Source: a virus. Taken from it: a stretch of 64,000 nt of DNA. Positions 1,352 to 62,497 of this stretch are shown here, piece by piece (the stretch's first letter is position 1; the number at the start of each line of letters is the position of its first letter). Under the pieces are notes generated by a model. That model was not told the origin of the DNA. It did not search any database and saw only the letters and a program-made list of their open reading frames with translations. The position numbers and the translations under genes were made by a program. The stretch spans positions 64,001-128,000 of the IMG/VR virus record IMGVR_UViG_3300025617_000007; one strand, written 5' to 3'.

Positions 1352-2203
1352 TTAAATTTCTTTTTTATCTCCTCCTTTAGTTAAATAAGTTCTTACTGGT
1401 TTATCTTCATACTCATTATCTAGAAATGCTTTAATTTTTTCTACATTTCCTGGGTCATCGTCAGAAAACCCTATCATTGGTATAAAATTATTTTTAACAT
1501 CATTTTTAAGGAAAGCTCTTTTTCCTAATCTCTCACTCATACTTTTAACGTAAGTGATAAATTCTCTTAAAGCCTTTATTTTACCTTCCTCAGGATTTGA
1601 CGCTGAACCCTCCCCATAAGTTACAGGATAATATTTACAAAGGTCCAAATATTCATTAATCATTGTTTGACCATCTTTGGACACATCCCCTGTCATATTT
1701 CTGTATTTTTTTAAATTCTCAATAAGGGTATCTTTACTAATACCATTATGTTCGGTAACTATAAAATTATAAATGGACTCTCTAAGAACTGAAGGTGTAT
1801 GACCTCTAGCAGTGATAATTGCAAAGATTGAACCTCCATTTATACATTCTACAAAATCATCCCAAGACGGTCCGATAGTTGCCATCATTGAGTCAATAAT
1901 AAAAGCATTGTCTCCTTTTACTCCGAAATTTCTATATGGGTCACTAGCATAACCAACAATCATAGTGTTTTTATACTCAAAAGGTTCTTTACCTATCATT
2001 GCACGGTAATCTGCAAAGTCTTCCGTAGACATTCCGATTTCTTCATCGTTTTCACTTAAAAGAATAATTTGAGTCGGCATCGTTACGATATTATCGTCCC
2101 AATCAAAGGCATAATATTTTAAATCTGGATTACCCTCAGTGTCGAAACCTTCTTTTAATTGTTTTTCTTCGATGAATTCTCTTATGATTCTTTTAATCGA
2201 CAT
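1352..2203 (-). CDS. HAD-superfamily phosphatase-like protein with N-terminal leader
   Basis: Motif I FDWDD, motif II IITARG, conserved Lys (GKIKA), motif IV GFSDDD. Confidence 0.65.
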   Translation of the reverse strand: MSIKRIIREFIEEKQLKEGFDTEGNPDLKYYAFDWDDNIVTMPTQIILLSENDEEIGMSTEDFADYRAMIGKEPFEYKNTMIVGYASDPYRNFGVKGDNAFIIDSMMATIGPSWDDFVECINGGSIFAIITARGHTPSVLRESIYNFIVTEHNGISKDTLIENLKKYRNMTGDVSKDGQTMINEYLDLCKYYPVTYGEGSASNPEEGKIKALREFITYVKSMSERLGKRAFLKNDVKNNFIPMIGFSDDDPGNVEKIKAFLDNEYEDKPVRTYLTKGGDKKEI

Positions 2204-2346
2204 TACTTATTGGTTTTTATTTTTTCAATTAATCTTTCCAATTGAGACTCAGAAATCACAATATTTTGTGGTTTTTCTGAAAACGATTTTTTGTTGTTAG
2301 TATTAATATCTAACGCTTCGTTAAGTGTTTTCTTTTTAAATTCCAT
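2203..2346 (-). CDS. 47-aa micro-protein (not in the ORF track)
   Basis: MEFKKKTLNEALDINTNNKKSFSEKPQNIVISESQLERLIEKIKTNK*. Its stop overlaps the next ATG (TAATG) and a late motif lies at 2404-2411. Confidence 0.7.
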   Translation of the reverse strand: MEFKKKTLNEALDINTNNKKSFSEKPQNIVISESQLERLIEKIKTNK

Positions 2347-2380
2347 TTTTTTTTAGTTTAAAAGTTTAATAAAGGCTAAT

Positions 2381-2399
2381 GGGGACCATAGTGGTCCCC
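2381..2399. other. GC-rich hairpin GGGGACCA-tag-TGGTCCCC
   Basis: Perfect 8-bp inverted repeat after the sheath gene; no immediate U-tract on the minus strand. Confidence 0.6.
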
Positions 2400-2421
2400 A
2401 TATTATAAATATATCAAGTGA

Positions 2422-5607: not shown

Positions 5608-5740
5608 TGTTAAAAAATTTCTTTAGTTTTATTTATTAGATAAATATTAAGTAATTTACCAAAAAACTAATCAGGTGACACCATATTTATAAAGTGTATG
5701 AAAAAAGTATGCCTTTTTTCTACCTTTTAAAAAAATAACT

Positions 5741-9815: not shown

Positions 9816-9856
9816 GATTTACAAGTTCTATATTATTTATATAGAAAATAACATTT

Positions 9857-11422
9857 ATGAAGTTCAAAAGATTAAAAGAAAAAATCTCATTAGTTGAACA
9901 TAAAATTAATAAGAGCCAAGATAACAAAACCCTCGTTTCAGAGATATCTGCGCAAACCTCAAAATATATTATTACAGAGATGAAAAAAATTGGTATTGAA
10001 AAACTACCATATTCTTATTCTGCCTTAGAAAGATTCATAGATTCAGACACTATGGATACTCACTATAACAAACACTATAAAGGATATGTAAAAAAATTAA
10101 ACGACGCATTAGAGAAAACTAAAGATGGTGATTTAGAATTAGAACAAATTATTAAAGGTATTTCACGATATAACACCACTATTAGAAATAATGCTGGAGG
10201 TGCATTTAACCATGCACTTTTTTGGAAAATGTTATCTCCAAAAAAACAAAGAGCTCAAGGAGAGGTGTATGAAAAAATAGTAAAAGATTTTGGAAATTTT
10301 TCTAAATTTAAAAACATCTTTACTGTTGAAGCTAAGAAACGTTTTGGTTCAGGATGGGTTTGGTTAGTATTAACTAAATCAGGAAAATTAAAAGTTATGT
10401 CCACTCCAAATCAAGATAACCCTTTAATGAATATTGTTAAAAATGGAGGTTTCCCTATATTAGGTTTAGATGTTTGGGAACACGCGTATTACTTAAAATA
10501 TAAAAATAAAAGGGATGAATATATTAAAAACTTTTGGTCTGTAGTAAATTGGGATTTTATAAATGACTTATACAATCTAAGAACTGATAAAAAAATCGAT
10601 GAGGTTAAAAAAGTTAAAACAATTATTACCGAAGGAGCGAGTGCGGGTTGTAATAGAAGTCAGGTTCAGAACTATAGAAGATTATTTAATACTAACCCTC
10701 AAATTAAAAAGAAATTTATGTTCACCATTATGGACATACTTAAAGAGGTTTTTTCAGAGTACTGGTACGAAAAAAATCAATACGATAAAGGTCAAATGTC
10801 AGGGATTTATGATTACGAACAAAAAGGTCGTTCAGTAATTAATAAACTTAACACAAATTACACCGCATTTTGTACTTTAGTAAACGATGTAAATCAATTT
10901 TTAAGAAAATACGGTATAGATGCAATCAATTTTAATAACAAAAATAATCAACAACAAATAAAAGAAGTTGAAAAATTAAATAAATATTTAATTGAGTTAC
11001 GGTACAGAATATTCGACTCAGAGTCACCCACCTTTAAAACGTTAATGGCAGGTTTAGATAAGACAAATAAATTTGGAGACAAAAGAGAAGTTGATGCGGT
11101 TGTAGGGTTAAAAGATATTTTTAAAACTGATAAGGTAACTAAAGTCGGTGAATTAGGTGGTGTTGATGATATGATAGGTGGAGTTGATGCCATTGTAGAA
11201 TTACCTGAAGGGACGAAAACAATGCAAATAAAACCATTTAACAATACCAAAAATACTAATGGGAAGATAACTGTTTTTGGGACTGGTAATGTTAAACCCT
11301 ACAAAACTGACTATTTAGTTTTTCACAATAACAAATTAGGTACGTTAGTGTTTGAAAACTCTAATACGAAAATTATTGACGGGAGATATGTTTTTGATGA
11401 GACATCCCAATACGTAAAGTAA
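9857..11422 (+). CDS. sod: Fe/Mn superoxide dismutase fused to a C-terminal PD-(D/E)XK-like domain
   Basis: LPYSYSALE, HYNKHYKGY, NHALFW, FGSGWVWL and DVWEHAYY give all four metal ligands; about 260 extra C-terminal residues. Confidence 0.9.
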   Translation: MKFKRLKEKISLVEHKINKSQDNKTLVSEISAQTSKYIITEMKKIGIEKLPYSYSALERFIDSDTMDTHYNKHYKGYVKKLNDALEKTKDGDLELEQIIKGISRYNTTIRNNAGGAFNHALFWKMLSPKKQRAQGEVYEKIVKDFGNFSKFKNIFTVEAKKRFGSGWVWLVLTKSGKLKVMSTPNQDNPLMNIVKNGGFPILGLDVWEHAYYLKYKNKRDEYIKNFWSVVNWDFINDLYNLRTDKKIDEVKKVKTIITEGASAGCNRSQVQNYRRLFNTNPQIKKKFMFTIMDILKEVFSEYWYEKNQYDKGQMSGIYDYEQKGRSVINKLNTNYTAFCTLVNDVNQFLRKYGIDAINFNNKNNQQQIKEVEKLNKYLIELRYRIFDSESPTFKTLMAGLDKTNKFGDKREVDAVVGLKDIFKTDKVTKVGELGGVDDMIGGVDAIVELPEGTKTMQIKPFNNTKNTNGKITVFGTGNVKPYKTDYLVFHNNKLGTLVFENSNTKIIDGRYVFDETSQYVK

Positions 11423-11462
11423 AGAAATGTTGTTTTCTTAATATTTATATAGAAAACAAAGT

Positions 11463-24104: not shown

Positions 24105-24397
24105 TGGCAAAACAAAACGATAAAATACAATTTGACCAGCCAGACAATAGTTTGTCTGCAATTGCTGAAGCGGAAAGAAGTAAACTATTTCCGAAAAATG
24201 ATTTTTCACCTAAAAGTGATGCGTACTCACCACAACACCCTGATGCTATGGCTGATGGAGATGGGATAGGTAGAGGTACTGCTAAGTTCTTAGATGTGTA
24301 CAACGAAAACGCTGGTACATCGACAGATATTCAAGAAAGAATAGGTGATATTAAGATTAATAAATTTAATTCAAGTAAGACATACCCTAACTTTTAA
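24104..24397 (+). CDS. Hypothetical protein
   Basis: Abutting, translationally coupled ORF. Confidence 0.55.
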   Translation: MAKQNDKIQFDQPDNSLSAIAEAERSKLFPKNDFSPKSDAYSPQHPDAMADGDGIGRGTAKFLDVYNENAGTSTDIQERIGDIKINKFNSSKTYPNF

Positions 24398-43764: not shown

Positions 43765-44024
43765 TGAAAATAAAAATAACTGAACAGGAATTGATGGAGA
43801 TTATAACTCGTGTTATCAACGAGAAGAAAAAATCTAAGAAGAAAAAATCTAAGAAGAAAAAATCTAAAAAAGACACTACTCTTTGTTCGAGAGGTAAAAA
43901 TGCCGCAAAGGCCAAATATGACGTGTATCCGTCCGCATACGCTAATGGATACGCGGTTCAAGTGTGTAAAGGTAAAATGCCGGGACTGGATGGTGAAAAA
44001 AGATGTTCGGGTAAGTATTGTTAG
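43764..44024 (+). CDS. Small basic protein: leader + (KSKKK)n + Cys-containing module
   Basis: MKIKITEQELMEIITRVINE, Lys repeats, LCSRGKNAAKAKYDVYPSAYANGYA. Confidence 0.65.
   Translation: MKIKITEQELMEIITRVINEKKKSKKKKSKKKKSKKDTTLCSRGKNAAKAKYDVYPSAYANGYAVQVCKGKMPGLDGEKRCSGKYC
43823..43868 (+). repeat. 15-bp tandem repeat (aagaaaaaatctaag, about 3 copies) encoding KKKSK
   Basis: Direct reading. Confidence 0.85.
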
Positions 44025-44067: not shown

Positions 44068-44253
44068 ATGAACCAAACGATATACCAATTAATTAAAGTT
44101 AAAAAAGACAATACTGAAAAAATTGTTTTAGAAACAGGCGCATCATCAATAGAGAGAGCTATGGATTATTTTTATTTTGAAAAACCAAGGGCTTATTCTA
44201 ATAAGAAATATAGAATATCCATCAAACAAGAGGAACATAAAATAGTTAGTTAG
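44068..44253 (+). CDS. 61-aa hypothetical protein (true start probably 44068, MNQTIYQL)
   Basis: Promoter-like site directly upstream; the track start at 43810 overlaps the previous gene out of frame. Confidence 0.5.
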   Translation: MNQTIYQLIKVKKDNTEKIVLETGASSIERAMDYFYFEKPRAYSNKKYRISIKQEEHKIVS

Positions 44254-44804
44254 GTTAATTTACTAATCACCCATTTATAACCAACATCACCACCGTGAGA
44301 TAACCAATCAACATACTCGGTATGTTTTTCAGGTCTACCCTTAAATCCCTCGTTAAGTGTTACAGAAGTCTTTTTAGAATCAAAAAAACTTTTTAATCTC
44401 ATCATCTCTTCTTTGGTTATAACTTTCTTATCAATCAATTTAAGAGAAAATTTATTGACATTTTTAGACTTTTTACCGTAAAAAATACCCTTCTTCATCT
44501 CATTTATAACAATTTTAGGTATTAGGTATTTATCATTATTTTCAAATACGACTATTTTAAGGTCGTCAGAACCTTTAATTACTCTATGGTATGTCTCTTT
44601 AGGTATAAAGTATTTTTCACCTTCTCGTAGGACCTGAGGTATCTCCTCGTCCATTTGTAGTCTCCATTCACTTCCTGACTCAACAAAAACTATACGGTCA
44701 AATTTGTCTTTATGCCATTTTAACTCATCGTTATCTACAGATTCAGAAAACACTCTTCTGAATTTATTATGTGATATATTTTCTTGTGTATAAATCATTA
44801 CCAA
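44250..44804 (-). CDS. Cupin-like domain fused to a second conserved phage domain
   Basis: 'LKWHKD...IPKETYHRVIKG' cupin pattern; VINE at the domain boundary. Confidence 0.5.
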   Translation of the reverse strand: MVMIYTQENISHNKFRRVFSESVDNDELKWHKDKFDRIVFVESGSEWRLQMDEEIPQVLREGEKYFIPKETYHRVIKGSDDLKIVVFENNDKYLIPKIVINEMKKGIFYGKKSKNVNKFSLKLIDKKVITKEEMMRLKSFFDSKKTSVTLNEGFKGRPEKHTEYVDWLSHGGDVGYKWVISKLT

Positions 44805-45679
44805 TATCTCCCCGATACATTTTTACCAAAATCTTTATGTGCTCTACACGCCCAATAACCCGCCTTTGTCTTATCCTTTTTCTTAGCACATTGGTGTCTC
44901 GCAGCAAATGATTTACGAGCAGCAGGGTCATTCCATTTGGCGGTCATCACAGGAGAACCATAAGATACCTTCTTAATCTTACCTGTCTTAGGATTACGTA
45001 CATATACATACCATTTCTTTGAACCACCTGATTTAGGTTTGTTCAATTCAACGTCCTTACCCTGATACTCCGCTTCATTAATCATCGGATAATCCAAAGG
45101 TAATCTCTCACCTTCATAGATAAAGAACTTACCCAAATCACTTTCTAAAAGTCTGTTATCTTTTTCTCTATTATAATGTCCTTTCTCCTTGAGTTCTCTC
45201 GCCTCATTAATGACGGAGAAGTATTTATCACTACCTCTACGGAAAATATTTTCAGATAAAGAAATGCCGTTATCAATATGGTACTGCAATTCTTCGGAAA
45301 CTTCATACTTTATTTCGTTATATTCTTTTAATATTTTTTTAATAATATTAGTGTCGACTGATTCTTTTTTGTAATTTTTAACTTTAATTCGTGTAGGCTT
45401 TTGACCTTTACCTGTTTGAGGGTCCTTTTTTTCTTTTTCCCTCTTTCTACGACAAGCAGAATCTTTTTCTTTTTGAGACATTTTACCAGCAACACCTGCA
45501 CCTCGACATACAGGGTAACCTCCTTTATCCGCATCTTTACGACCACAAGGAGGGTGACCTCCACCTTTTTTCTTTTTACAAATGTTTACCCACGGTCCTT
45601 TAGGTTGTGAAGAACCTTTCTTCTTTTTTTTCTTACCAAACCATACTGATAAATCTTCTGATAAAATATATTCACTCAT
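44798..45679 (-). CDS. Basic multi-module protein (probable head-packaged DNA-binding protein)
   Basis: K/R/C/G-rich module, linker, middle module, then 'EAEYQGKDVELNKP...SFAARHQC...YWACR'. Confidence 0.55.
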   Translation of the reverse strand: MSEYILSEDLSVWFGKKKKKKGSSQPKGPWVNICKKKKGGGHPPCGRKDADKGGYPVCRGAGVAGKMSQKEKDSACRRKREKEKKDPQTGKGQKPTRIKVKNYKKESVDTNIIKKILKEYNEIKYEVSEELQYHIDNGISLSENIFRRGSDKYFSVINEARELKEKGHYNREKDNRLLESDLGKFFIYEGERLPLDYPMINEAEYQGKDVELNKPKSGGSKKWYVYVRNPKTGKIKKVSYGSPVMTAKWNDPAARKSFAARHQCAKKKDKTKAGYWACRAHKDFGKNVSGRYW

Positions 45680-46994: not shown

Positions 46995-48512
46995 TTATGC
47001 GATGTTAAGGTCTTTAATTCTTCCATAAATAGTTCCAGCAGGAACCCCTTTATTTCTGTAATCGTTGTCCTCATTCTTAAAGAATAAGTCAAAAATATCA
47101 AAGAATTTCTTCAAATCAATTCTTACATCACCATACATATCACCATTTCTTATGGTTTTATTACGTATTTTATTTTTTCTAGGACCACCATTTCTCCACA
47201 AATCATATTTTTGTAACATTGGAAATGCTGATGAATATATATCTTCTAAGCTAATACTTTTTATGTAATCAAATTTTTCTCGTCTATTATTAATTGATTT
47301 TACCTTTTTAATTACATCACCTAAGTTACTCGCGATTGGTAATAAATCACCAACATCGTTTAATAACATTTGTTTAGTATCATCTTTACTATCATCAATA
47401 CGCGGTAATTTCCCCTTTTTATACATCTGCAATCTACTACTTACCAACGATTCTCTTTCTTGTTGAACGGTACTAGGTCTAATAACTACTTTATTATCCA
47501 CTACTTTATCACCACAAGCATCTAAAGTTAATAATAACCCATCATTTTTACCTGGTTTATTATCATAAACCACCTCACCATTTTTAACTATTTTAACTCT
47601 TGGTAAATCTTTATGTGCTCGACTAGTGACAGATATAAACCATATGTTAATAAGTCCTTTACCTTGTTTAACAATATTTTTTGATTGTTCATTTGTAACT
47701 GTAAATGTATCAACCCTTGTGCCCTTAATGTCACCATCTTTATTTGACCCATATTTTTTACTTATGTAACCATACGCAGGATTAACTAACTGAGCAGGTA
47801 ATTTAGGTTTACCTGAAATGTTGTGATATGTTATATTAGTGTCCGCGTTATTTAAATTAGCCGTTTTACCACCCTCACCATTTAATAACAATGTATCGTT
47901 GGCAAATAAGAAAAATTCAGCATTATTACACTCGTGAGATGGGACCCAAACCTTTATTTCAAGTCCTGTAACACAATCTAGTGTTATTATAGAGACAGGC
48001 TTTTTTTCACCTATCGCCTTTATTGTAAAATTTGAAAATTGTTCTTCTGTGTAATTATCATCTCTAGGATTGTCTTCACCTTGAGTATATTTAGTTGAAC
48101 CTATAACTGGTTCATTAACTACTATTTTAACATCTTGTAGAATATCAGACGCATTTTTTTCTAAATAGTTTTTTAATGTTTCGGCTCTTTTTTTAGATAA
48201 ATAACCTGGGTCGACTTTTTTCTTTGGAGTTACCTCAGCATCGTAGTTAGTTACCTGTGATTCCCCTGAATTAATTTCAACTTGTATAACACTACCTTTA
48301 TTCTTTTCTTTAAATGTTCTAATTTTTTGAATTGCATCATCAATTTTTTTAACATTCTCAGGTATTTTCCATTTACCCGATTGAAAAGTATCCGCAATGT
48401 CTATTTGTTCAGTGGGTTTATCTTGTTCAGTGGGTTTATCTTGTTCAGTAATAATTCTACGAACAATATTTTCTAAATCTGACTCAGTTAGACGTATTAT
48501 TTTTTTAGACAT
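46995..48512 (-). CDS. Putative head-packaged/ejection protein with degenerate OmpA-like domain
   Basis: Leader IIRLTESDLENIVRRIITE, TEQDKP repeats, 'FQSG...IQVEINSGESQV...LSKKRAETLKNYL'. Confidence 0.55.
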   Translation of the reverse strand: MSKKIIRLTESDLENIVRRIITEQDKPTEQDKPTEQIDIADTFQSGKWKIPENVKKIDDAIQKIRTFKEKNKGSVIQVEINSGESQVTNYDAEVTPKKKVDPGYLSKKRAETLKNYLEKNASDILQDVKIVVNEPVIGSTKYTQGEDNPRDDNYTEEQFSNFTIKAIGEKKPVSIITLDCVTGLEIKVWVPSHECNNAEFFLFANDTLLLNGEGGKTANLNNADTNITYHNISGKPKLPAQLVNPAYGYISKKYGSNKDGDIKGTRVDTFTVTNEQSKNIVKQGKGLINIWFISVTSRAHKDLPRVKIVKNGEVVYDNKPGKNDGLLLTLDACGDKVVDNKVVIRPSTVQQERESLVSSRLQMYKKGKLPRIDDSKDDTKQMLLNDVGDLLPIASNLGDVIKKVKSINNRREKFDYIKSISLEDIYSSAFPMLQKYDLWRNGGPRKNKIRNKTIRNGDMYGDVRIDLKKFFDIFDLFFKNEDNDYRNKGVPAGTIYGRIKDLNIA

Positions 48513-48550
48513 AATATATTTGTTTAATTATAAATATCTGTAAATAAAAA

Positions 48551-48593: not shown

Positions 48594-50336
48594 TTATCTT
48601 AATGAGTTCAAATCAAATGTTCTAACTCCATCAACGATGATTCTTCCGTAGAATCTGTTGTTCACCATCTTCTTAGCGTATCTGGTCATGATACCTTTGA
48701 TTGGTGTAAAGTTGAATGGGTTATACATTGTTGGTGTCAACTGTAATGGTACGTATGGTGCGTAAACGTAACCTGTATCCAATAGAGAAGAACCTTTATG
48801 ACCCATCAATACAGTGTTTGGTGGGAAGTAAGGGTCACGGTAAACTTGATATCTACCTGATAACGTACCTACTCTCTCAATACCCATGTTGTATTGGTCT
48901 TGGTCTGGTGCTGCGTTTGATACGTGGAAGTATTCCAAGTCATCAAAGATTGCTGAAATTTCAGAAGAAACTACAATCCAGTTAGCTCCACCTCTTAATG
49001 TTGATTTGTGAATTTGAGCTGAGATTTGGTTAATCGCAGTAATTAACGTTTGGTTCCAATCTTTTTGGTTGTAATTTACTGACCCGTTAGCCACTCTTTT
49101 CCAACCGTTGTAATCCCAACGTAATGTCCATGCTGCACCTTTTCTCAAGTCTCTTAAGATTTCACGGTCAATTTCTGCCGCAACTTGTTCAGACAATAAA
49201 GCTGTCAATTCAGCTTCAGCGTCGATGTTGTGGAATGCAGAAACGTCTTGTGCTAATTCTGGAGACCATTGTGCTCTTAGTTTTCTTTCTGTTACAGAAA
49301 CTGTTACTGACTCAAGGTCAAATGAAACTTCACCGATTCTATCTTCGAACTCCATATCTTTGTAGATTCTGTAAGTTGCGTTGAATGAAGGTGCTCCACC
49401 TGTGTAAGATACTCCTTCGTAACCATCTAATGATGTTGTTCCAATTGCCACTGGTGAAGATACGTCAACTGATAAATAAATTTTACCATCAGCAGTACAG
49501 ATATCATCATACTTACCACCAGGGAATGCTGTAGGAGCTTCCTGACCGTATTGTACGATACCTTTACCGTATTTCTGAGTAACAACATTAAAGTTATAGA
49601 AAGTAGAACCCGCTTTAACTTGTAATGAAGATAAGAACTCTTCAGTATCCATTTCGTTACCGTTAGGTCCGATTAATTTACCTGCTCCGTCAGATTGGAA
49701 ATTTGATAATTCAACCAATACCGCTCTAACTTCAGTTTGTGCAGTGTAGAATGCATTAGCACCTGTATCAGTTAATGAAGAACCGTCCCAAATCACATTA
49801 GTTAAACCCGTTGTGATTGCAGAATATGCACCTTTAGAGTAGTCGAATAAACCTGCTGGGTCTTCAGCTGGTTCAGCACCTTCGTAGAAACGGTCATACA
49901 AGTTTTTATCACCTGCACTGTAACCTGCCTCAGTACTACCTGTGTTACCAGGTGCACCGTAAGGTTGATAGTGACTGGATAAACCATCGACAGTCGTTCT
50001 GTTTTGAATTTTAGGTACGAAGTAGAACAATTTACCGATTGGTAAGTTCATAGCTTGTACTGATACGATATCATTAGCTAATAATTTAGAGAAAACTCTT
50101 CTAATGATAGGGAAAACAACTGTTTCAAATGAACCTGAGTTATCTGATGCAGATGCTTCGTTGATTAAGTGAGATGCTTGGTTTTCATACAATTGTGCCA
50201 TGTTCTCTTTAGTGTGACCTTTAAGTCCTTCTAGGAATCCTAATTTATCCCATTTGTTGATTGTGTCTTCTTTGATAACTTTCAAGTGCTTAAGACCGAT
50301 GTTACCAACTAGACCTGATTCTAATAATGCTCCCAT
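48594..50336 (-). CDS. gp23: Major capsid protein, T4 gp23-like
   Basis: 'IVSVQAMNLPIGKLFY', 'RKLRAQWSPELAQD..AFH.IDAEAEL', 'YAPYVPL', 'P.KGIMTRY'. Confidence 0.95.
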   Translation of the reverse strand: MGALLESGLVGNIGLKHLKVIKEDTINKWDKLGFLEGLKGHTKENMAQLYENQASHLINEASASDNSGSFETVVFPIIRRVFSKLLANDIVSVQAMNLPIGKLFYFVPKIQNRTTVDGLSSHYQPYGAPGNTGSTEAGYSAGDKNLYDRFYEGAEPAEDPAGLFDYSKGAYSAITTGLTNVIWDGSSLTDTGANAFYTAQTEVRAVLVELSNFQSDGAGKLIGPNGNEMDTEEFLSSLQVKAGSTFYNFNVVTQKYGKGIVQYGQEAPTAFPGGKYDDICTADGKIYLSVDVSSPVAIGTTSLDGYEGVSYTGGAPSFNATYRIYKDMEFEDRIGEVSFDLESVTVSVTERKLRAQWSPELAQDVSAFHNIDAEAELTALLSEQVAAEIDREILRDLRKGAAWTLRWDYNGWKRVANGSVNYNQKDWNQTLITAINQISAQIHKSTLRGGANWIVVSSEISAIFDDLEYFHVSNAAPDQDQYNMGIERVGTLSGRYQVYRDPYFPPNTVLMGHKGSSLLDTGYVYAPYVPLQLTPTMYNPFNFTPIKGIMTRYAKKMVNNRFYGRIIVDGVRTFDLNSLR

Positions 50337-50363: not shown

Positions 50364-51731
50364 TTATTTTTGAATTTTACCCATCAAATCCTTCATTCTT
50401 AAGAATTGTGGATTCTCATAAGTTTTATTTTCAATAAGGTTAGTCGCGGAACCTTTAGACGGTGATTTCTGAACTTTAGATGTTACCGATTCAGTAACAA
50501 CTGAAGAACCTGATTTCGAATCTAAATCTTCTTTGATTGTTTTGTAAAGACCTTTAGATTCTTTGATTGTTTCTGCAGAATCAAAACGTCTTAAAATGTT
50601 TATTTTTTCTTGTTTTGTTGTCGAATGCTCAGTGAACAGTCGAGTTGCATATGCTAGATTTGAATTGAAAACTGCAACCTCGTTAAGTTTTTCTTTAAAG
50701 ATGTTAAGTGCCTTACGGTACTCTTCATTTTTTTCTCTTAACTGAGAAACTTCTTTTTCTAAAGATTCGTTTCTCTGTGCCGGTCTCTTTAAAGACTTAG
50801 GGAAGTTCTGAGGTTTTTTGTTAGTGATACGACCATTAACATTTGAACGAACAGAGGATTCTTTATATTCACCTTCCATTTCTTCACCTTCTTCCATTTG
50901 GTCCATACTCATATCTCCTGAATATTTTTTCTTACCCATAGACTTTTCCATTCCTTCACTTTCTTTTCTTCTATCAGCGAAAGATTGTTTCATTTTTCTA
51001 CCGCGGTCTTTCATACCTAATGAATCATCAAGGTCATCATCGTAACCTTCACCCATTTCTTCTTCAGATTCGTCTTCATCACCAAGTTCGATTTCATAAA
51101 CAATTTCATCTTCTAATTCCATTCCTTCACCCATTTCATCGTCCATTACATCTTCTTCTTCGTCACCCTCTGTTTGAATTTGATATTCAACGTCAGCTTC
51201 CTCGTCTTTTAAGTGAATCTCATCACCGTCTTGTGTTACCACAATACCGTCTTCTTCACCCATAGCTTTGAAAACCTTAAGGATTTCTTCGTCAGAAGCA
51301 CCTGTAAGGTCAAGAGGTAAAAGAATTTCTTCTTCGTCATCAACTTCTAAATCATCACCTGGTAAATCCATCATAAGCATTTCATCAGAATCCATTTCCA
51401 TATCATCTTCATCTTCCATTTCGTCAGACTCGTCTTCAAATTCCATTTCATCTTCTTCGTCATCCATATCCTCAATTTCCATGTCCAGCTCTTCTTGTTC
51501 TTTCATTTCGGTACCCATATCGTGGTCCCCTTTTTCTTTTTCTTCGCTTTCCATTTCTTCTGATGACATTTCTTCAATCTCTTTATCTGATAGAGATTCT
51601 TTTACTAATTCACTGATTTCTTCCTTCATAGTAGAAGCAAGTATTCCTTTTGCATTCTCCGTTACGGCTTCCTCCAAATTCTTCATTTGTAGTAGTGCCT
51701 CTTCAACTAAATTTTGTTTTTTTTCTGCCAT
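50364..51731 (-). CDS. gp22: Prohead core scaffold protein, gp22-like, very acidic
   Basis: Position between protease and capsid genes; E/D/M-rich; C-terminal coiled coil. Confidence 0.75.
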   Translation of the reverse strand: MAEKKQNLVEEALLQMKNLEEAVTENAKGILASTMKEEISELVKESLSDKEIEEMSSEEMESEEKEKGDHDMGTEMKEQEELDMEIEDMDDEEDEMEFEDESDEMEDEDDMEMDSDEMLMMDLPGDDLEVDDEEEILLPLDLTGASDEEILKVFKAMGEEDGIVVTQDGDEIHLKDEEADVEYQIQTEGDEEEDVMDDEMGEGMELEDEIVYEIELGDEDESEEEMGEGYDDDLDDSLGMKDRGRKMKQSFADRRKESEGMEKSMGKKKYSGDMSMDQMEEGEEMEGEYKESSVRSNVNGRITNKKPQNFPKSLKRPAQRNESLEKEVSQLREKNEEYRKALNIFKEKLNEVAVFNSNLAYATRLFTEHSTTKQEKINILRRFDSAETIKESKGLYKTIKEDLDSKSGSSVVTESVTSKVQKSPSKGSATNLIENKTYENPQFLRMKDLMGKIQK

Positions 51732-52115: not shown

Positions 52116-52838
52116 TTAATTTCCTAAATAATCGGAAAGTTTTCTCATTAAGTCAAGTGATTTGTCCATACCTTTTGAAGATTCTACTGAAGAACCTTTA
52201 TGTTTCGTTTCTTCTTCAATGTTTTCATCGTACTTTGTTCTATCATCTTGATTTAAGAATAAGTAAGCTCCTGGTGTTGATGGGGAAGATACTAAATCAA
52301 AACATATCAATTCAAAATCTTCTTGTACTTCATTCTTTTCACCTTTTTTTACTAATGAACCCACACCACGAGATGAAACTCCCATAGTAACACCCTGTCT
52401 CATAAGATTAGCTGCTTGGTCACCAGGGCAAGATACTACACCTTTTTCGTGGAAACCTGGTGATGTTAGTAATTTTAATTTACCCATAAGTACATTACCT
52501 TCCCACCACATATCAGTAATTAAATGCGATACACGGTCTAAATCGATTAGAGATGACTCAGGATGGTTAAGTTCAGATATTGATAACCCTTTCTTTATTG
52601 CTCCTTGATACTTATCAGCCTCTCTTTTTAAAATCTTTTCAGGGTAGATACGTCCGTTTCTATTCGGCGTATCGTATTTCTGTAATACAGCATAAAACTC
52701 AAAGGGTTTAGAGTGGTCTAATTGACCATAGGATTCTTTAATTACCTCAGCGTTTCTAGTATCGTTGGGATTTATAAATCCAGCATCCCATTCTATTAAT
52801 ATACCTTTACCTGTATCGTTCGGTCCTAATATTTTCAT
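52116..52838 (-). CDS. gp21: Prohead protease, T4 gp21-like
   Basis: NRNGRIYP, ELNHP (His), GVSSRGVGS (Ser), DLVSSPS (Asp). Confidence 0.92.
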   Translation of the reverse strand: MKILGPNDTGKGILIEWDAGFINPNDTRNAEVIKESYGQLDHSKPFEFYAVLQKYDTPNRNGRIYPEKILKREADKYQGAIKKGLSISELNHPESSLIDLDRVSHLITDMWWEGNVLMGKLKLLTSPGFHEKGVVSCPGDQAANLMRQGVTMGVSSRGVGSLVKKGEKNEVQEDFELICFDLVSSPSTPGAYLFLNQDDRTKYDENIEEETKHKGSSVESSKGMDKSLDLMRKLSDYLGN

Positions 52839-52857: not shown

Positions 52858-53241
52858 TTACGGAATGCCAAGTACGACATCCCATTCACTTATTTGGATG
52901 GGGGTTAACCTTAATATTTTGTTTATTTTATCTACAATAAAATCTTTATATTGATAAGCTAATTCACTATCGTTCCCCTCTCCCGACCAAAAAACATAGT
53001 TATTTGCAAAATCAGTAACGTCTTTCCCGTCATACATAACCTCACCAATGGCTACATGAACAGTTATATCCTCATCTTCTATACTACCCTCCATAAAAAC
53101 ACTATCAGGTATAATAACTGAATTTCTATACCCAAATTTATATGAGTAATCTTTAGGTTTTATCATATTGTTAAGGTTATCCAAAACAGTATTTGATTCG
53201 AATAACCTTCTCATTTGATTTTCTTTTATGATAATTTTCAT
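52858..53241 (-). CDS. Hypothetical protein with N-terminal leader
   Basis: MKIIIKENQMRRLFES; late motif at 53255-53262. Confidence 0.55.
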   Translation of the reverse strand: MKIIIKENQMRRLFESNTVLDNLNNMIKPKDYSYKFGYRNSVIIPDSVFMEGSIEDEDITVHVAIGEVMYDGKDVTDFANNYVFWSGEGNDSELAYQYKDFIVDKINKILRLTPIQISEWDVVLGIP

Positions 53242-54771: not shown

Positions 54772-54791
54772 AATGTTTTTTATTATAAATA

Positions 54792-58486: not shown

Positions 58487-58506
58487 CTATACACGATAAT
58501 AGTATT

Positions 58507-59781
58507 TTATGTTAAAGAAATACCTAAATCGCCTAAAAGTCCTTCAAGACCTCCATAGTCATCATCATCGTCATCATCACTATACTGAGACATCGCATCA
58601 TCGTATTCTTCTTGACGTAATTCCTCAATGATTTCATCAACCATTTTAGAAACAATTTCTTTACCTTTTTCTGAACCTGAAAGAATCATCTTAGCAACAT
58701 CGAAAAACTCTTCAGTGTTAAGTGCTGAGAAACGTGAGAATAGATAATTTTGAATTTCTCTCATATCGTCCTCATATAATTTTTCAGGATACGATTCCAT
58801 AAATTTTTCCCAAATCACAGGACCTAAACGTAAGTCCCATATTTCATATGGTAAAGTATCTTGTGAAGCCATAACCATTTCTGCGGCTTTAGGGTCGTCA
58901 GGTAGACCTTGTGTACCCATAACTTCATAAACACCTTTCACTAATTCGTGAACTAAAATAGGGAAAAATAATCCTTTAGCTCTAATAGTTGGTGGGTCTG
59001 TGGTCTCGTCTACTTCTTCTTTACCTTCCATACCTTGACCGCTTTGAGCGGCATTCATAACCATTTGGTCAGGTAAAATCCAATATAGTAAGTCGTTTAC
59101 TGACATTAATACACCATAAAGGTTCAATAAACGAGGATTAAGATTGTTTAACTGCTCTTCAACTAAGTGGAACATATAATGACCTTTTTTTGATGCTCCT
59201 TGAATAAGTGAGTTAATAAATCTTCTTTTTGCCTTCTCTAAGTCAAACTTTTCAAAAGCAACCATAAAGTTTTCTAAATCGTCTTCGGCTTCATCTTCAG
59301 ATACTCCAAATTGTTCAATAACATCTTCATCTTCAGGTTCCTCAGAATCACTTTTCATTCCTGACATATCAATCTGTCCCGGCATTGAGGTTATCTCAAC
59401 ATCGTATTGAAAAGCATCGTCAGGAATTGACATTTCTTGTTTTACTAAGTCAACAGCTAATTGTTCGAGGTAACCTTCATTGTTCGATTCAATTTGTTTT
59501 ACTTCTTGGACTGCACTCATCATCATCATTTGTAAGTTCATCAATTGATTTTGACTTACTTCTTGAACTCCTGTATATCTTTTAACCTTTTCAACAACAT
59601 CTTTAAATCTTTTAGATGCGATAAGTTGTTCAAAAGAATTATCAAACTCATCTTCATCCTTACGTGGTAATCCAGGATTATCCGACATAGGTGTCTCACC
59701 TTTTTCTAATTTTGACTGAATTGATGGGTCCATTCTTTCAGGTCCATCATATTCTATTTGTTCTTTTACTTTCTTACTCAT
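58507..59781 (-). CDS. Acidic hypothetical protein
   Basis: Long ORF, co-oriented with the head module. Confidence 0.55.
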   Translation of the reverse strand: MSKKVKEQIEYDGPERMDPSIQSKLEKGETPMSDNPGLPRKDEDEFDNSFEQLIASKRFKDVVEKVKRYTGVQEVSQNQLMNLQMMMMSAVQEVKQIESNNEGYLEQLAVDLVKQEMSIPDDAFQYDVEITSMPGQIDMSGMKSDSEEPEDEDVIEQFGVSEDEAEDDLENFMVAFEKFDLEKAKRRFINSLIQGASKKGHYMFHLVEEQLNNLNPRLLNLYGVLMSVNDLLYWILPDQMVMNAAQSGQGMEGKEEVDETTDPPTIRAKGLFFPILVHELVKGVYEVMGTQGLPDDPKAAEMVMASQDTLPYEIWDLRLGPVIWEKFMESYPEKLYEDDMREIQNYLFSRFSALNTEEFFDVAKMILSGSEKGKEIVSKMVDEIIEELRQEEYDDAMSQYSDDDDDDDYGGLEGLLGDLGISLT

Positions 59782-60868
59782 CTCTAAATGTTATGTTTAA
59801 ATTATTGAACTTAAGGAAATCCGGCATTTCAGTACCTGCCTTAGGTGCCGGTTTATGTTTTGGTTTGTAAGGACTTTTTCTGTCAGGTTTAGAAGGTGTT
59901 TTTGTTGGAGTTTTAACAGGGGCTTCTTTGGTTCCTTGTTCCAATAAATCTTTTTTAGTCATTGTCGGTTTCTTATAATTTCTCAACAAAGATACTAAAC
60001 TTTCTTCAATTTTACTAACTTTCCTCTGAAAAGATTCGTTCTGTTTTTTTACATCTCTTACACAACGCTCGAATTTTTCATTTTCTTTCTTAGTGTAATC
60101 ATCTTTTTCTTTACCTTCAAGACCTAATGATGACGTACATACCGCCCATGGGTTATATTTTTCTTTTTTCTTATCCTCAAACATACCTAACGTAGTGATT
60201 GGTGTTTTCATCTTAACACTTTTCTTTTTAGTTTCAGAAATACCCATACCGTCATTGGCTTTCATATTGTCAGAAGGACCGTCTTCATTACCTTCAGGGT
60301 TTGGGTCCTCATTAGGGTCAATACCTGCAATTTTATTCAAATCATTAGTCATTTGATTCTCATCTAATTCGATATCAACATCATATGGGTCAACCTCTTT
60401 AACTGGTTCGAACATCCTAACCATAGCGTAGAATGTTTCGGGAAAATATCGTCTAAGATATCTTCTTTTAGCATCATCAATAAGACCTTCTCTATCTGTT
60501 TCATACTCTTCCCAATCATCCCAATAAAAATCTACGGCGTCTTCAGCTGCGGATTCTAACTCAGAAGAAAATGGACTTGGCATACTTTGAGGTTCACCTA
60601 AATCCCTGTGAATAGAATCATTCATAATACTTTGGTCCGAAGAACCCCATTCATTTAATTCTTCCTCACCTAATTCTTGTGATATTTTTTGAACTAAGTC
60701 ATTTGCCTGATTTAAATCATTTTTAATTTTTTCAGTCTTATCCGTAGTACTTTGTTCATTAACAATTTTTTTATGTAAAACATTGATTTGTTTTTCATTA
60801 AGGTTTTTAAGAGTTTTAATCGTAAAACCTTCTTTCATTAATTCCATTAATTTATTCTTGGTGCTCAT
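59774..60868 (-). CDS. Multi-module hypothetical protein with leader
   Basis: LNEKQINVLHKKIVNE leader; 'NPWAVCTSSLG...KFERCVRDVK' module; P/K-rich tail. Confidence 0.55.
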   Translation of the reverse strand: MSTKNKLMELMKEGFTIKTLKNLNEKQINVLHKKIVNEQSTTDKTEKIKNDLNQANDLVQKISQELGEEELNEWGSSDQSIMNDSIHRDLGEPQSMPSPFSSELESAAEDAVDFYWDDWEEYETDREGLIDDAKRRYLRRYFPETFYAMVRMFEPVKEVDPYDVDIELDENQMTNDLNKIAGIDPNEDPNPEGNEDGPSDNMKANDGMGISETKKKSVKMKTPITTLGMFEDKKKEKYNPWAVCTSSLGLEGKEKDDYTKKENEKFERCVRDVKKQNESFQRKVSKIEESLVSLLRNYKKPTMTKKDLLEQGTKEAPVKTPTKTPSKPDRKSPYKPKHKPAPKAGTEMPDFLKFNNLNITFRDE

Positions 60869-61268
60869 CTTCTATAAAACTTTTTTCGTAATCTAATACA
60901 ATATCTCTTTCGTAAATTTTATCTTCAACAGATTTTACACTGTCTCCGTAATGGAAAACTAATCTAGTGAGCTTTTCATTAACAATCGCTTCACTATCTT
61001 CGTCTTCCCATGCTAAGGCAATAACCCCGTCAATTGAGTCATATACCCCAAAAAAATCAGAATTTTGAATTAAATGTAACTCAATACCTGAATTTCTAAG
61101 GACTCCAACTTTCTTTATAAACTGAATATGGGGTGGTGAAGGGTTCCCATTAGCTGGTTGCGAGTCCCATTCATCACCCCATACATCGTTATCATCTGAA
61201 AAGATGAATTCATATATGTTATCACCCTTAAAATTGGGTCCTAGTTCATTTACATAAACTAATTTCAT
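60852..61268 (-). CDS. Hypothetical protein
   Basis: Overlaps both neighbouring genes. Confidence 0.55.
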   Translation of the reverse strand: MKLVYVNELGPNFKGDNIYEFIFSDDNDVWGDEWDSQPANGNPSPPHIQFIKKVGVLRNSGIELHLIQNSDFFGVYDSIDGVIALAWEDEDSEAIVNEKLTRLVFHYGDSVKSVEDKIYERDIVLDYEKSFIEDEHQE

Positions 61269-62497
61269 AGTAACTCACCTTTTGGAGATACTTTATATTG
61301 TTTACCGTCAGCTTCAAAAACTAAATTACTCTTATTTGTTTTTCCTAAAAATTTGATATTATCGTTTTCTTTAACTAAAAACTCAGAAGTTAATTCTTGT
61401 TCGATAGTTTCTGACAATCTTTTTATTTCTTTTTTAACTGTAATGTTTTGTACTTTTTCAGTTAAAAATTTTTTAATTTTTTTTCCTTCATTAATTTGTT
61501 TTTCATCTTCAGAAATAACAAAGTATTTTTCCAAAACTTTATCTATTTTAGATTCTTTGAATAACTCATCAACCATATATTTCATAGAATCCCCTTCTGC
61601 CATTTCACCTTCAGGTTCAGCCATTTCTTCATCTTCGAAATCTAAGTCTAAATCTAAGTCTAAATCTTCTTCACCTGCATCTACATCTATATCAACGTCA
61701 CCGTCCATACCGTAATCGATTTCATCTTCCTCAAAATTATCTAAAATATCTTCTTTATCTTCTTCAGATAGTTTTTCTAATTCAACGGCAGAAATTATTG
61801 AATTTAAAACATACTTAATATCTTCAGAAGAAAGTCCTTGATTTTTATCAAACATTCTAAGTTTTTGACCTAACTTACCTGTTAATTTTTGAATAGCCTT
61901 AAACGAGCCTTCTTCTTCGTCTTCTTCACCATCCATAGGTTCTTCATCACCCATACCCATTTCTTCACCATCCATAGGTTCTTCATCACCCATATCTAAA
62001 TCCAAATCTAAGTCTAACTCTTCACCACCCTCATCAGATGGTTCTTCAACACTCATATCTAAATCTAATTCAGGTTCCATAGCCGGTACCTCAACTTCAG
62101 GTTCTACCTCAGGTTTAGGTGTTTTTAATACAAATTTCTTTTGTTCACCAATTAAGTTAATGCCTTCTTCATTTTCATGAATTCTATTTAACTCACCCGC
62201 AAGTAAATTAATTTTCTTCATTGCTTGAGAATAAGATTTATGGTATTTTCTATTCTTCATAGGTTCAATGTAATCAAACTCTGATTCATTAATTCCTTTC
62301 TTAACAATATAACCTAATTTTTCTTTTACAATTCCATAGTAGTTACCGTCCGCCAGTTGAATTGAATAATCAGCTGAGGAAGTTTTACTTTCATTTACGG
62401 TAGATGGTTTTGAACCATAATTAGCTATTTCAAGAATTCTACTAATTTTTTCTTGACCTTCTAATTTTTCACTACCTAGAGGATTTAAATCTGCCAT
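61265..62497 (-). CDS. Acidic low-complexity (E/D/M) protein, probable prohead core component
   Basis: DLDLDL and EEPMDGEE repeats; composition resembles the scaffold. Confidence 0.5.
   Translation of the reverse strand: MADLNPLGSEKLEGQEKISRILEIANYGSKPSTVNESKTSSADYSIQLADGNYYGIVKEKLGYIVKKGINESEFDYIEPMKNRKYHKSYSQAMKKINLLAGELNRIHENEEGINLIGEQKKFVLKTPKPEVEPEVEVPAMEPELDLDMSVEEPSDEGGEELDLDLDLDMGDEEPMDGEEMGMGDEEPMDGEEDEEEGSFKAIQKLTGKLGQKLRMFDKNQGLSSEDIKYVLNSIISAVELEKLSEEDKEDILDNFEEDEIDYGMDGDVDIDVDAGEEDLDLDLDLDFEDEEMAEPEGEMAEGDSMKYMVDELFKESKIDKVLEKYFVISEDEKQINEGKKIKKFLTEKVQNITVKKEIKRLSETIEQELTSEFLVKENDNIKFLGKTNKSNLVFEADGKQYKVSPKGELL

What the first reader, a model, noticed from the sequence alone, without database searches (positions are those of the whole stretch)
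1352..62497. Candidate capsid-cargo system: shared leader and hydrophobic-(I/V)-(N/T)-E sites at domain boundaries of unrelated proteins
Seen in sequence: the tetrapeptide hydrophobic-(I/V)-(N/T)-E falls at the point where recognisable domains begin. Examples: SOD IITE|MKKIGIEKLPY and IITE|GASAG (second domain); WYL LINE|VAS; 43764 VINE|KKK; 44250 VINE|MKK (cupin/second-domain boundary); 44798 MINE|AEYQG; 46995 IITE|QDKP; 59774 IVNE|QST; and the major capsid protein LINE|ASASD. Several proteins also share a longer leader, (I/L)-(T/S/K/N)-E-x-(D/E/Q)-(L/M/I): IRLTESDLENIV, IKITEQELMEII, IIIKENQMRRLFE, IVISESQLERLIE, LNEKQINVL. Established: T4 gp21 cleaves after Glu in (I/L)-x-E, removes the gp23 N-terminus, and removes the short capsid-targeting sequence of internal proteins such as the anti-restriction protein IPI. 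Inference: this phage uses a portable leader plus internal cleavage sites to load diverse enzymes and multi-domain polyproteins into the prohead, cut them with the gp21-like protease at 52116-52838, and inject them with the DNA. The leader would then predict the injected toolkit genome-wide.
Basis: partly seen in the sequence, partly recalled or inferred. Interest (0 to 1): 0.88.

Follow-up and report, generated by a model that had tools for sequence, protein, structure and literature searches.

The report
Capsid-loading leaders in T4-like jumbo phage
An uncultured T4-related giant phage puts N-terminal leaders ending in its head protease's likely cutting motif on unrelated proteins, among them a superoxide dismutase fused to a nuclease-like domain. 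It probably loads them into the capsid as T4 loads its internal proteins, but no cut, packaging or injection has been measured.

Summary
Every quoted peptide is present. Hydrophobic-(I/V)-(N/T)-E occurs 46 times against 19.5 expected, and 15 against 3.4 in the first 60 residues; permuted control motifs stay near 1-1.7x overall.

The window has a T4-type head module: gp23-like capsid protein, S77 protease, portal, terminase. Comparative data support a broader rule, hydrophobic-[I/L/V]-x-Glu.
- Capsid protein: LINE|A is invariant in 71 relatives.
- SOD fusion: in 64 orthologs the 18-41-residue leader is hypervariable, yet it ends in this motif in 98%. The inter-domain linker carries two conserved sites in a segment AlphaFold models as disordered.
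- The WYL protein (45 orthologs) and a DWDDN-motif protein (70 orthologs) behave alike.
- A roughly 22-residue leader (M-K-K-h-h-R-L-T-E-S-D-L...h-h-x-E|Q/K) heads about ten unrelated protein families in relatives.

Limits:
- The cupin example fails in orthologs.
- The short motif alone is not specific; a control gave similar counts for a Lys variant.
- Cleavage, packaging and injection are inferred.

This is a new variant of T4's capsid-targeting system. The scan has reported comparable leader systems on other uncultured T4-like phages.

The parts
52116..52838 (-). Prohead maturation protease, T4 gp21 type (Peptidase S77). Its N-terminus carries GILIE (13-16) and VIKE (32-35).
   Evidence: Pfam PF03420 1.1e-23 and PHROG 207 4.7e-44. 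Aligns to T4 gp21 structure 5JBL at E 3.2e-16, with ELNHP and SSRG conserved. ILIE is invariant in 38 relatives and parallels T4 gp21 LLIE-9.
48594..50336 (-). Major capsid protein, gp23 family. Predicted 61-residue propeptide (nt 50154-50336), cut after HLINE.
   Evidence: Pfam Gp23 6.5e-73. LINE|A is invariant in 71 distinct IMG/VR relatives, and the residues just after it vary. Flavobacterium phage immuto has IVSE|AN and Microcystis phage Mel-JY01 has LISE|AN at the same place. The delta-domain aligns with T4 gp23, which reads FLTE|AEIGG.
50364..51731 (-). Probable scaffold (gp22 position). Acidic and helical, with several h-[ILV]-x-E sites (residues 8, 42, 210, 411).
   Evidence: Lies between protease and capsid gene as in T4. 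No family hit. Sites 210 and 411 have Glu in 100% of 18 relatives within variable flanks.
9857..11422 (+). Predicted polyprotein: 41-residue leader (9857-9979), Fe/Mn SOD (9980-10633), linker sites IDE 247-249 and IITE 256-259 (10595-10633), then a helical plus PD-(D/E)XK-like domain (10634-11419).
   Evidence: Pfam Sod_Fe_N 2.9e-23 and Sod_Fe_C 1.9e-39. In 64 orthologs the leader columns have 2-3.2 bits of entropy plus indels, but P4 is 98% I/F/L, P3 98% L/I and P1 98% Glu. Linker Glu249 is 100% conserved and Glu259 98%. AlphaFold: leader helix of low confidence, linker 246-261 with pLDDT under 50, C-domain about 89. C-domain fold matches Hjc (Z 7.8) and I-Ssp6803I (Z 7.4).
24397..24783 (+). 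WYL-domain protein with a 13-residue leader (24397-24435) ending LINE.
   Evidence: In 45 distinct orthologs P4 is L/I, P3 is I/L, P2 is free (entropy 2.17 bits) and P1 is Glu in 100%. The WYL Pfam match passes its cut-off in 5 of 8 orthologs and starts at residue 17. The window's own copy scores 19.3 against a cut-off of 21.8.
1352..2203 (-). DWDDN-motif protein (possible HAD-type phosphatase, unverified) with an 18-residue leader (2150-2203) ending QLKE|G.
   Evidence: In 70 orthologs the variable N-terminus always ends [L/I]-x-E|G just before the conserved body. No Pfam or PHROG hit.
46995..48512 (-). 505-residue cargo candidate with the 23-residue shared leader (48444-48512) ending IITE|Q. 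Lies directly downstream of the capsid gene.
   Evidence: Best leader-profile hit, 19.9 bits. Proteins at this position in relatives carry variant leaders that all end h-h-x-E|Q/G. A terminator hairpin plus TATTTATA lies upstream. Weak OmpA-like lead only.
43764..44024 (+). 86-residue basic protein: 20-residue shared leader (43764-43823), Lys run, Cys-containing domain. The closest analogue here of a T4 internal protein.
   Evidence: PHROG 27331 5.8e-13 on residues 40-72. Orthologs near the capsid gene in relatives keep leader, h-h-x-E|K and the Lys run.
59774..60868 (-). 364-residue protein with a 38-residue variant leader (60755-60868) ending IVNE|Q.
   Evidence: Orthologs end in IVKE|Q, IVSE|V, KITE|D, KLNE|Q or RLVE|Q.
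44798..45679 (-). Modular protein: MSEYILSE start, Zn-ribbon-like basic module, helical module, then the AEYQGK module after PMINE (nt 45074-45085).
   Evidence: Glu202 is 94% conserved and Glu8 100% in 16 relatives. In relatives extra modules are inserted, or the gene is split, exactly at [ILV]-x-E junctions. PHROG 7595 begins at residue 202.
52858..53241 (-). 127-residue protein at the T4 gp68 position, with a leader-like N-terminus (…ENQMRRLFE|S).
   Evidence: Leader profile 12.9 bits. Orthologs keep RLFE.
63850..64000 (-). C-terminal end of a 272-residue gene (63850-64668, running past the window edge). It carries a leader variant ending YLKE|Q and a peptidoglycan-binding domain.
   Evidence: Leader profile 16.7 bits. 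Pfam PG_binding_1 7.5e-8. TATTTATA plus a terminator lies upstream.
44250..44798 (-). Cupin fused to a second domain. The VINE|MKK junction is NOT supported as a cleavage site.
   Evidence: Orthologs read VISQ|MKK, VRES|VKK and VKEN|AKK. The cupin is a stand-alone 87-residue ORF in most relatives.

Best explanation
The window belongs to an uncultured T4-related jumbo phage; the record is about 46% of a genome of roughly 300 kb.

Proposed mechanism: its gp21-type serine protease cuts after Glu in hydrophobic-[I/L/V]-x-Glu. It removes a 61-residue propeptide from the capsid protein. It also trims N-terminal leaders from a set of non-structural proteins that share a promoter-like motif with the virion genes.

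There are two kinds of leader:
- A portable, roughly 22-residue amphipathic helix (M-K-K-h-h-R/K-L-T/S-E-S-D/E-L-x-x-h-h-K/R-K/R-h-h-x-E|Q/K). It sits on hypervariable genes around the head module.
- Protein-specific helical leaders of 13-41 residues on conserved core genes: the SOD-nuclease-like fusion, the WYL protein and the DWDDN-motif protein.

As with T4's capsid-targeting sequence, the leader most likely holds the protein on the scaffolding core while the prohead forms. Cleavage then frees it inside the head. Multi-domain proteins are cut apart at linker sites. The cargo leaves with the DNA.

Shown here: motif presence, enrichment, conservation against variable flanks, portability, predicted accessibility of the sites, the protease family and head-module synteny. 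Inferred: cleavage itself, prohead incorporation and ejection.
For: - T4-type head module, with the protease His and Ser motifs kept.
- The capsid-protein site is invariant and positionally equivalent to the T4 gp23 cut.
- SOD fusion: P4/P3/P1 are 98/98/98% conserved at the end of a hypervariable leader, and there are two conserved Glu sites in a disordered linker.
- WYL protein: 100% Glu with free P2 in 45 orthologs.
- DWDDN-motif protein: [L/I]-x-E|G in all 70 orthologs.
- Leader profile: 43 of 47 hits are N-terminal, against 1 decoy hit. 41 of 42 distinct leaders end in h-h-x-E; median length is 22 residues; about 12 downstream clusters.
- Two leaders in this genome are 72% identical as protein but 61% as DNA, so the peptide is what is conserved.
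- Modules are inserted or genes split exactly at [ILV]-x-E junctions.
- TATTTATA lies 12-16 nt upstream of the start codons of tail tube, head-module and leader genes alike.
- The motif is enriched in N-termini of two related genomes: 1.56x (z 3.8) and 1.70x (z 3.6).
- T4 precedent: gp21 cuts after L/I-x-E, and 10-19-residue CTS propeptides load diverse proteins (PMC9026906, PMC3012670).
Against: - There are no proteomic, N-terminal or biochemical data for this phage or any close relative. No isolate lies nearer than 42-43% capsid-protein identity.
- The short motif has low specificity. With 2-4 orthologs, conserved h-x-E near N-termini is as common as h-x-K (15 against 15 of 69) and occurs in proteins that are clearly not virion parts.
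- Two of four related fragments show little N-terminal enrichment.
- In the SOD the conserved h-h-x-E abuts the conserved enzyme N-terminus, so part of its conservation could be structural.
- The leaders have no sequence similarity to T4's MKTYQEFIAE.
Confidence: 0.6

Rival explanations
1. The leader-bearing proteins do enter the prohead and are cut by the protease, but they are core or assembly components that are degraded and expelled before DNA packaging (like T4 gp22, gp67 and gp68). They are not delivered effectors.
For: 52858-53241 sits at the gp68 position and carries a leader-like N-terminus. In T4 most core fragments leave the head (PMC9026906). Nothing here bears on ejection.
Against: The cargo includes intact enzyme folds (SOD, PD-(D/E)XK-like, WYL, a peptidoglycan-binding domain) with conserved catalytic-type residues. 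These are unlikely for disposable scaffolds. The variable leader genes behave like T-even internal-protein loci: they have no orthologs in the closest genomes.
Confidence: 0.15
2. The shared N-terminal helix serves another purpose, such as oligomerisation, recognition by a modifying enzyme, or localisation in the infected cell. Its ending in h-x-E is incidental to an amphipathic helix rich in Ile, Leu and Glu.
For: An earlier case in this scan (e1-127136) had a shared N-terminal tag that tracked a radical-SAM enzyme rather than the capsid. Short h-x-E motifs are common here. The complex prediction gave no verdict.
Against: 41 of 42 leaders end in exactly the motif found at the capsid protein's inferred maturation site, with P2 free and P1 Glu fixed. 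Unrelated protein-specific leaders (SOD, WYL, DWDDN-motif protein) share only that ending. No radical-SAM gene was found in the 138.6-kb record, although the record is only 46% complete. Leader genes cluster around the head module.
Confidence: 0.15
3. A compositional or chance effect in an AT-rich proteome, picked out after the fact by the reader.
For: Related hydrophobic-polar-acidic patterns are mildly enriched too (1.3-1.7x).
Against: z is about 6 over shuffles, and 4.4x in N-termini against at most 1.9x for most controls. Deep ortholog sets show selection on P4, P3 and P1 only. Decoy control for the leader profile: 1 against 47.
Confidence: 0.05

Closest known systems
Phage T4 capsid-targeting sequence (CTS) with internal proteins IPI-III and Alt, processed by gp21
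   Same: A gp21-family protease. N-terminal propeptides that end in a hydrophobic-x-Glu motif. One leader on unrelated, fast-evolving proteins encoded around the head genes. The capsid protein is matured at the same kind of site (PMC9026906, PMC3012670).
   Different: The leader is about 22 residues (T4: 10-19) and has no sequence likeness to MKTYQEFIAE. An extra hydrophobic P4 is preferred. Conserved core enzymes (SOD fusion, WYL) carry their own leaders. Predicted internal cuts would separate two enzyme domains. Nothing has been shown experimentally.
Giant-phage head maturation (phiKZ gp175, 201phi2-1, SPN3US gp245), with many cleaved inner-body and ejection proteins
   Same: Diverged gp21 homologues cut after Glu in a short motif. 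Many head proteins have propeptides, often with redundant sites. Large protein cargo is ejected into the cell (PMC9026906, PMC10052503, PMC5694885).
   Different: Those motifs are S/A/G-x-E or A-x-E and the capsids are not gp23-type. Here the motif is T4-like (I/L/V at P3) and the head module is collinear with T4.
Virion-packaged Cu/Zn superoxide dismutase of chlorovirus PBCV-1 (A245R)
   Same: A late-expressed viral SOD carried in the particle and thought to damp superoxide early in infection (PMC7019647).
   Different: A eukaryotic giant virus, a Cu/Zn enzyme, no leader or protease processing. Here it is an Fe/Mn SOD fused to a nuclease-like domain in a tailed phage, and packaging is only predicted.
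Earlier findings of this scan on other uncultured T4-like phages (e1-3862018, e1-5388769, e1-5407407, e1-5410523, e1-5689061)
   Same: Shared N-terminal tags ending in L/I-x-E on many unrelated proteins, and module chains joined at protease-type sites.
   Different: Different leader sequences and lineages. Those are AI notes, not independent evidence.

Membership tests
Peptidase S77 (T4 gp21 prohead protease) | Profile match above the curated cut-off | tested here: met
   PF03420 scored 84.2 bits against a cut-off of 27. PHROG 207 scored 4.7e-44.
Peptidase S77 (T4 gp21 prohead protease) | Catalytic His and Ser motifs aligned with T4 gp21 | tested here: met
   ELNHP and GVSSRG align with T4 LNHP and GVASRG in 5JBL and NC_000866. 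That these are the catalytic residues rests on my own knowledge of gp21.
Peptidase S77 (T4 gp21 prohead protease) | Gene order portal - small core genes - protease - scaffold - capsid protein | tested here: met
   Genes at 54792-56666, 54037, 53265, 52858, 52116, 50364 and 48594 compare with T4 genes 20, 67, 68, 21, 22 and 23.
Peptidase S77 (T4 gp21 prohead protease) | Cleaves after Glu in L/I-x-E | not testable with these tools
   Only inferred, from conserved sites.
T4-type capsid-targeting sequence / internal-protein system | One N-terminal propeptide shared by otherwise unrelated proteins | tested here: met
   Leader profile: 43 of 47 hits are N-terminal, with 1 decoy hit. About 12 downstream clusters.
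T4-type capsid-targeting sequence / internal-protein system | The propeptide ends in the prohead protease's motif | tested here: met
   41 of 42 distinct leaders end in h-h-x-E, the same motif as at the capsid-protein site.
T4-type capsid-targeting sequence / internal-protein system | Sequence relationship to the T4 CTS (MKTYQEFIAE) | tested here: not met
   No likeness on direct reading. The length is 22 residues against 10. It works like a CTS but is not a homologue by sequence.
T4-type capsid-targeting sequence / internal-protein system | Physical incorporation into the prohead core and removal of the leader | not testable with these tools
   No proteomic data exist for this clade.
T4-type capsid-targeting sequence / internal-protein system | Ejection into the host with the DNA | not testable with these tools
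   Inference by analogy only.
Fe/Mn superoxide dismutase | Both Pfam domains above cut-off, with His/His/Asp/His-type invariant residues | tested here: met
   Sod_Fe_N scored 82.6 bits and Sod_Fe_C 134.3 bits. H69, H73, H119, D205 and H209 are invariant in 40 orthologs. Their role as ligands is from my own knowledge.
PD-(D/E)XK nuclease fold (C-terminal domain of the SOD fusion) | Fold match plus an acidic...x-K motif | tested here: inconclusive
   Top structural hits are all of this fold: Hjc Z 7.8 (rmsd 3.5, 103 aligned) and I-Ssp6803I Z 7.4. Foldseek gave E 0.02 with probability 0.97. But Z is under 8. E411, D438, D444, Q457 and K459 are invariant, a Q-x-K variant.
WYL domain | Pfam PF13280 above the gathering score | tested here: inconclusive
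   The window's protein scores 19.3 against 21.8. 5 of 8 orthologs pass, at 23.1-27.3 bits.

The most novel reading that the evidence does not exclude
A widespread clade of roughly 300-kb T4-like jumbo phages (hundreds of IMG/VR contigs) packages a polyprotein that the head protease splits into an Fe/Mn superoxide dismutase and a PD-(D/E)XK-type nuclease. It injects both with its DNA, together with a changing set of leader-tagged proteins that includes peptidoglycan-binding ones. This would be the first phage known to deliver an antioxidant enzyme from the capsid. It would also give a general grammar (leader plus h-[ILV]-x-E joints) for building and reshuffling capsid cargo.
Probability: 0.3. 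Interest if true: 0.75.

Novelty: new variant of a known kind. Interest (0 to 1): 0.55.

Why it matters
If the prediction holds, T4's capsid-targeting trick is not a T-even peculiarity. It would be a general, evolvable loading system in distant T4-type phages. The leader profile (not the tetrapeptide) would then let the injected protein set be read from metagenomic sequence. The conserved SOD-nuclease-like polyprotein would point to an early-infection need to remove superoxide and act on nucleic acid before any phage gene is expressed. The leader could also serve as a packaging tag for engineering phages of this lineage's so far unidentified hosts.

Tried and rejected
- Complex prediction of the protease (27-row alignment) with residues 1-45 of the 46995 protein returned no verdict (score 0.00). 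It is not evidence either way.
- A word-based homology search with the leader region (residues 1-40) found one protein only. A 40-residue query is too short for that database.
- Megablast of the head module against isolate phages found nothing. The nearest isolates have 42-43% capsid-protein identity, and no virion proteomics for them is in the paper library.
- I looked for homology between the 86-residue basic leader protein and a look-alike in Flavobacterium phage immuto. BLASTP gave E 2.1 and the PHROG families differ. The likeness stays visual only.
- A five-genome test for conserved h-x-E near N-termini did not separate Glu from the Lys control. I dropped it as support and report it as a caution.
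- No radical-SAM partner was found in the record, which is 46% complete.
- An Atlas search on the 505-residue cargo gave only weak OmpA-like leads, with scores under 0.8.
- Sites I considered and rejected as cleavage sites: 44250 VINE|MKK; 63515 IINE (the Glu is not conserved); 60852 YVNE (inside a conserved block); 11463 VINE at residues 3-6 of a neck (head-tail adaptor) protein; and the ribonucleotide-reductase-like protein's WINE.

Full report
**What the window is.** The 64-kb window is the middle of a 138,593-bp virus record with 33% G+C. CheckV rates the record 46% complete. Related contigs of 125-162 kb rate 42-52%, and others reach 304-326 kb, so the phage is a jumbo of about 300 kb. 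The minus strand from 48.6 to 58.5 kb carries a T4-type head module in T4 order. It holds the large terminase (56714-58486), the portal (54792-56666), three small genes, an S77 prohead protease (52116-52838), an acidic helical protein at the scaffold position (50364-51731) and a gp23-family capsid protein (48594-50336). The nearest isolates are Flavobacterium phage immuto and Microcystis phage Mel-JY01, at 42-43% capsid-protein identity. IMG/VR holds at least 598 relatives, of which the 80 loci kept are 72-84% identical.

**Checking the observation.** I shuffled each of the 114 ORFs of the record internally as the null. Hydrophobic-(I/V)-(N/T)-E occurs 46 times against 19.5 expected (z 5.8), and 15 times against 3.4 in the first 60 residues (z 6.4). 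Eleven permuted or substituted control motifs gave 0.85-1.72x overall. Within the first 60 residues the only other strongly enriched one was the K/R-at-P2 version (2.9x). That already suggests P2 is free. The longer leader is also real. A profile built from it hits 47 ORFs at 12 bits or more in the record and its relatives, 43 of them within the first 15 residues, against one hit in reversed decoys.

**The protease and the capsid-protein site.** The protease aligns with the solved T4 gp21 (5JBL, E 3.2e-16) and keeps the LNHP and SRG motifs. Read from the T4 record, gp23 has FLTE|AEIGG, gp24 LLRE|S, Alt LFDE|D and gp21 itself LLIE|TWG. The literature gives L/I-x-E as the gp21 rule and 7-65-residue propeptides (PMC9026906). 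Here the capsid protein's delta-domain aligns with T4's (INKW...LEGL...YENQ). The only matching motif between it and the conserved N-arm is HLINE|A. That site is invariant in 71 distinct relatives, while the residues after it vary. Immuto and Mel-JY01 read IVSE|AN and LISE|AN there. The protease's own GILIE|W (residues 13-16) is invariant and parallels T4's LLIE-9.

**Deep ortholog sets.** This is the strongest evidence.
- **SOD fusion (9857-11422).** It is a core gene of the clade, and I compared 64 distinct orthologs. The N-terminal extension varies from 18 to 41 residues, with 2-3.2 bits of entropy per column. Its last four residues are nevertheless 98% I/F/L, 98% L/I, free (2.76 bits) and 98% Glu, directly before the canonical SOD start MKKIGIEKLPY.
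- **SOD linker.** The linker to the second domain has an invariant [LIV]-[NTK]-Glu249 and a second site at 256-259 (100/98/free/98%). AlphaFold with a 40-row alignment gives a low-confidence leader helix, a disordered linker (246-261, pLDDT under 50) and a confident C-terminal domain.
- **SOD C-domain.** Folded alone, that domain reaches pLDDT 90.5. Its last 120 residues match PD-(D/E)XK nucleases: Hjc at Z 7.8 and I-Ssp6803I at Z 7.4, with Foldseek E 0.02. This is a consistent but middling match.
- **WYL protein.** All 45 orthologs have L/I - I/L - x - Glu at residues 10-13, and the WYL profile starts at residue 17.
- **1352-2203 protein.**

**Portability of the leader.** The consensus is M-K-K-h-h-R/K-L-T/S-E-S-D/E-L-x-x-h-h-K/R-K/R-h-h-x-E. 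It heads proteins with about a dozen unrelated downstream sequences in the record and in capsid-gene neighbourhoods of relatives. Of 42 distinct leaders, 41 end in h-h-x-E. The median length is 22 residues. The next residue is Q (17), K (12), N or G.

In this record the carriers are 46995-48512, 43764-44024 (leader, Lys run and a small Cys domain, the closest thing to a T4 internal protein), 63850-64668 (peptidoglycan-binding domain, Pfam 7.5e-8), 71107-72366 (outside the window), and more weakly 52858-53241 and 59774-60868. Several of these have no orthologs in the two closest large contigs. T-even internal-protein genes are likewise poorly conserved among related phages. Two leaders in the record are 72% identical as protein but 61% as DNA, so the peptide is under selection.

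**Modular proteins.** In the 44798-45679 family, relatives carry extra modules inserted after LVLE| and PMVNE|. Other modules start after VISE|, LSE| or IDE|. One relative splits the gene into a leader-tagged first module and the rest. This fits cleavable joints. The cupin gene next door does not fit: its VINE|MKK reads VISQ, VRES or VKEN in orthologs, and most relatives have the cupin as a separate ORF.

**Expression context.** All 16 copies of TATAAATA/TATTTATA in the window are intergenic. In coding orientation, TATTTATA sits 12-16 nt before the start codons of the tail tube gene, the head-module gene 54037-54771, the SOD fusion, 46995, 63850 and 71107 (the last outside the window). The portal gene 54792-56666 carries only a one-mismatch variant. 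46995 and 63850 also follow terminator-like hairpins. This fits co-expression with virion genes, but the motif's role is not established.

**Cautions.**
- With only 2-4 orthologs per gene, conserved h-x-E near N-termini is as frequent as h-x-K (15 against 15 of 69 orthogroups). It also turns up in a sugar-nucleotide dehydratase-like protein, a glycosyltransferase-like protein and the terminase. The tetrapeptide alone therefore cannot list the cargo. The leader profile, or deep conservation against variable flanks, is needed.
- N-terminal enrichment is clear in two related fragments (1.56x and 1.70x) and weak in two others.
- No experiment bears on cleavage, packaging or ejection, and no close isolate exists. 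The complex prediction gave no verdict.

**Comparison with what is known.** The system works like T4's CTS and internal proteins, and like propeptide processing in phiKZ-type giants (PMC9026906, PMC3012670, PMC10052503). It is not a sequence homologue of the T4 CTS. Virion-carried SOD is known for chlorovirus PBCV-1 (PMC7019647). I found no phage case among 39 papers retrieved with those terms, of which 12 were listed and one was read. This scan has already reported comparable leader systems in other uncultured T4-like phages. I therefore rate this as a new variant of a known kind. Its most distinctive elements are the conserved SOD-nuclease-like polyprotein and the long leader.

Noticed in passing
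window 53811-54002 (+): A ribosomal protein bS21 homologue (Pfam Ribosomal_S21, 1.2e-12) sits inside the head module on the opposite strand. Microcystis phage Mel-JY01 has an annotated RpsU gene in the corresponding head-gene region.
   Followed up: partly
window, 16 intergenic sites, e.g. 9834-9841, 11442-11449, 48529-48536, 54784-54791: The octamer TATTTATA (coding orientation) lies 12-16 nt upstream of many start codons. All 16 window copies are intergenic. It is a candidate late promoter, but of a form unlike T4's TATAAATA orientation.
   Followed up: partly
window 2203-2346 (-): A 47-residue ORF has the leader-like helix (…IVISESQLERLIEK) at its C-terminus, not its N-terminus. It is conserved in two relatives, and its stop overlaps the start of the DWDDN-motif gene. 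Its function and its relation to the leader family are unexplained.
   Followed up: no
whole record (window = C1:64001-128000): The record is about 46% of a genome. Relatives reach 304-326 kb, so this is a jumbo-phage clade with hundreds of IMG/VR contigs and no cultured member.
   Followed up: partly
window 46408-46956 (-); record 134522-135037 (+): Two ORFs start with signal-peptide or lipoprotein-like N-termini (MKKILLILTTLLFGLNVYSQ…, MKKIILILLLLPLSVFSQ…) of a style common in Bacteroidota. This is a hint to the host, not a test.
   Followed up: no
window 54792-56666 (-), residues 589-592: The portal protein has an invariant LILE|D about 35 residues from its C-terminus, inside an otherwise variable tail (flank entropy 1.95 bits). 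This may be C-terminal processing, which is not known for T4 gp20.
   Followed up: no
record 49145-49792 (-), outside the window: A 215-residue protein has RYISE|QEEP at residues 19-23, conserved in four relatives. The ending resembles the leader ending YLKE|QEEEE, so it may be further cargo.
   Followed up: no
window 10634-11419 (+): The second domain of the SOD fusion has an N-terminal helical half of about 140 residues with no structural match. The nuclease-like half carries a Q-x-K variant of the (D/E)-x-K motif, so catalytic competence is open.
   Followed up: partly
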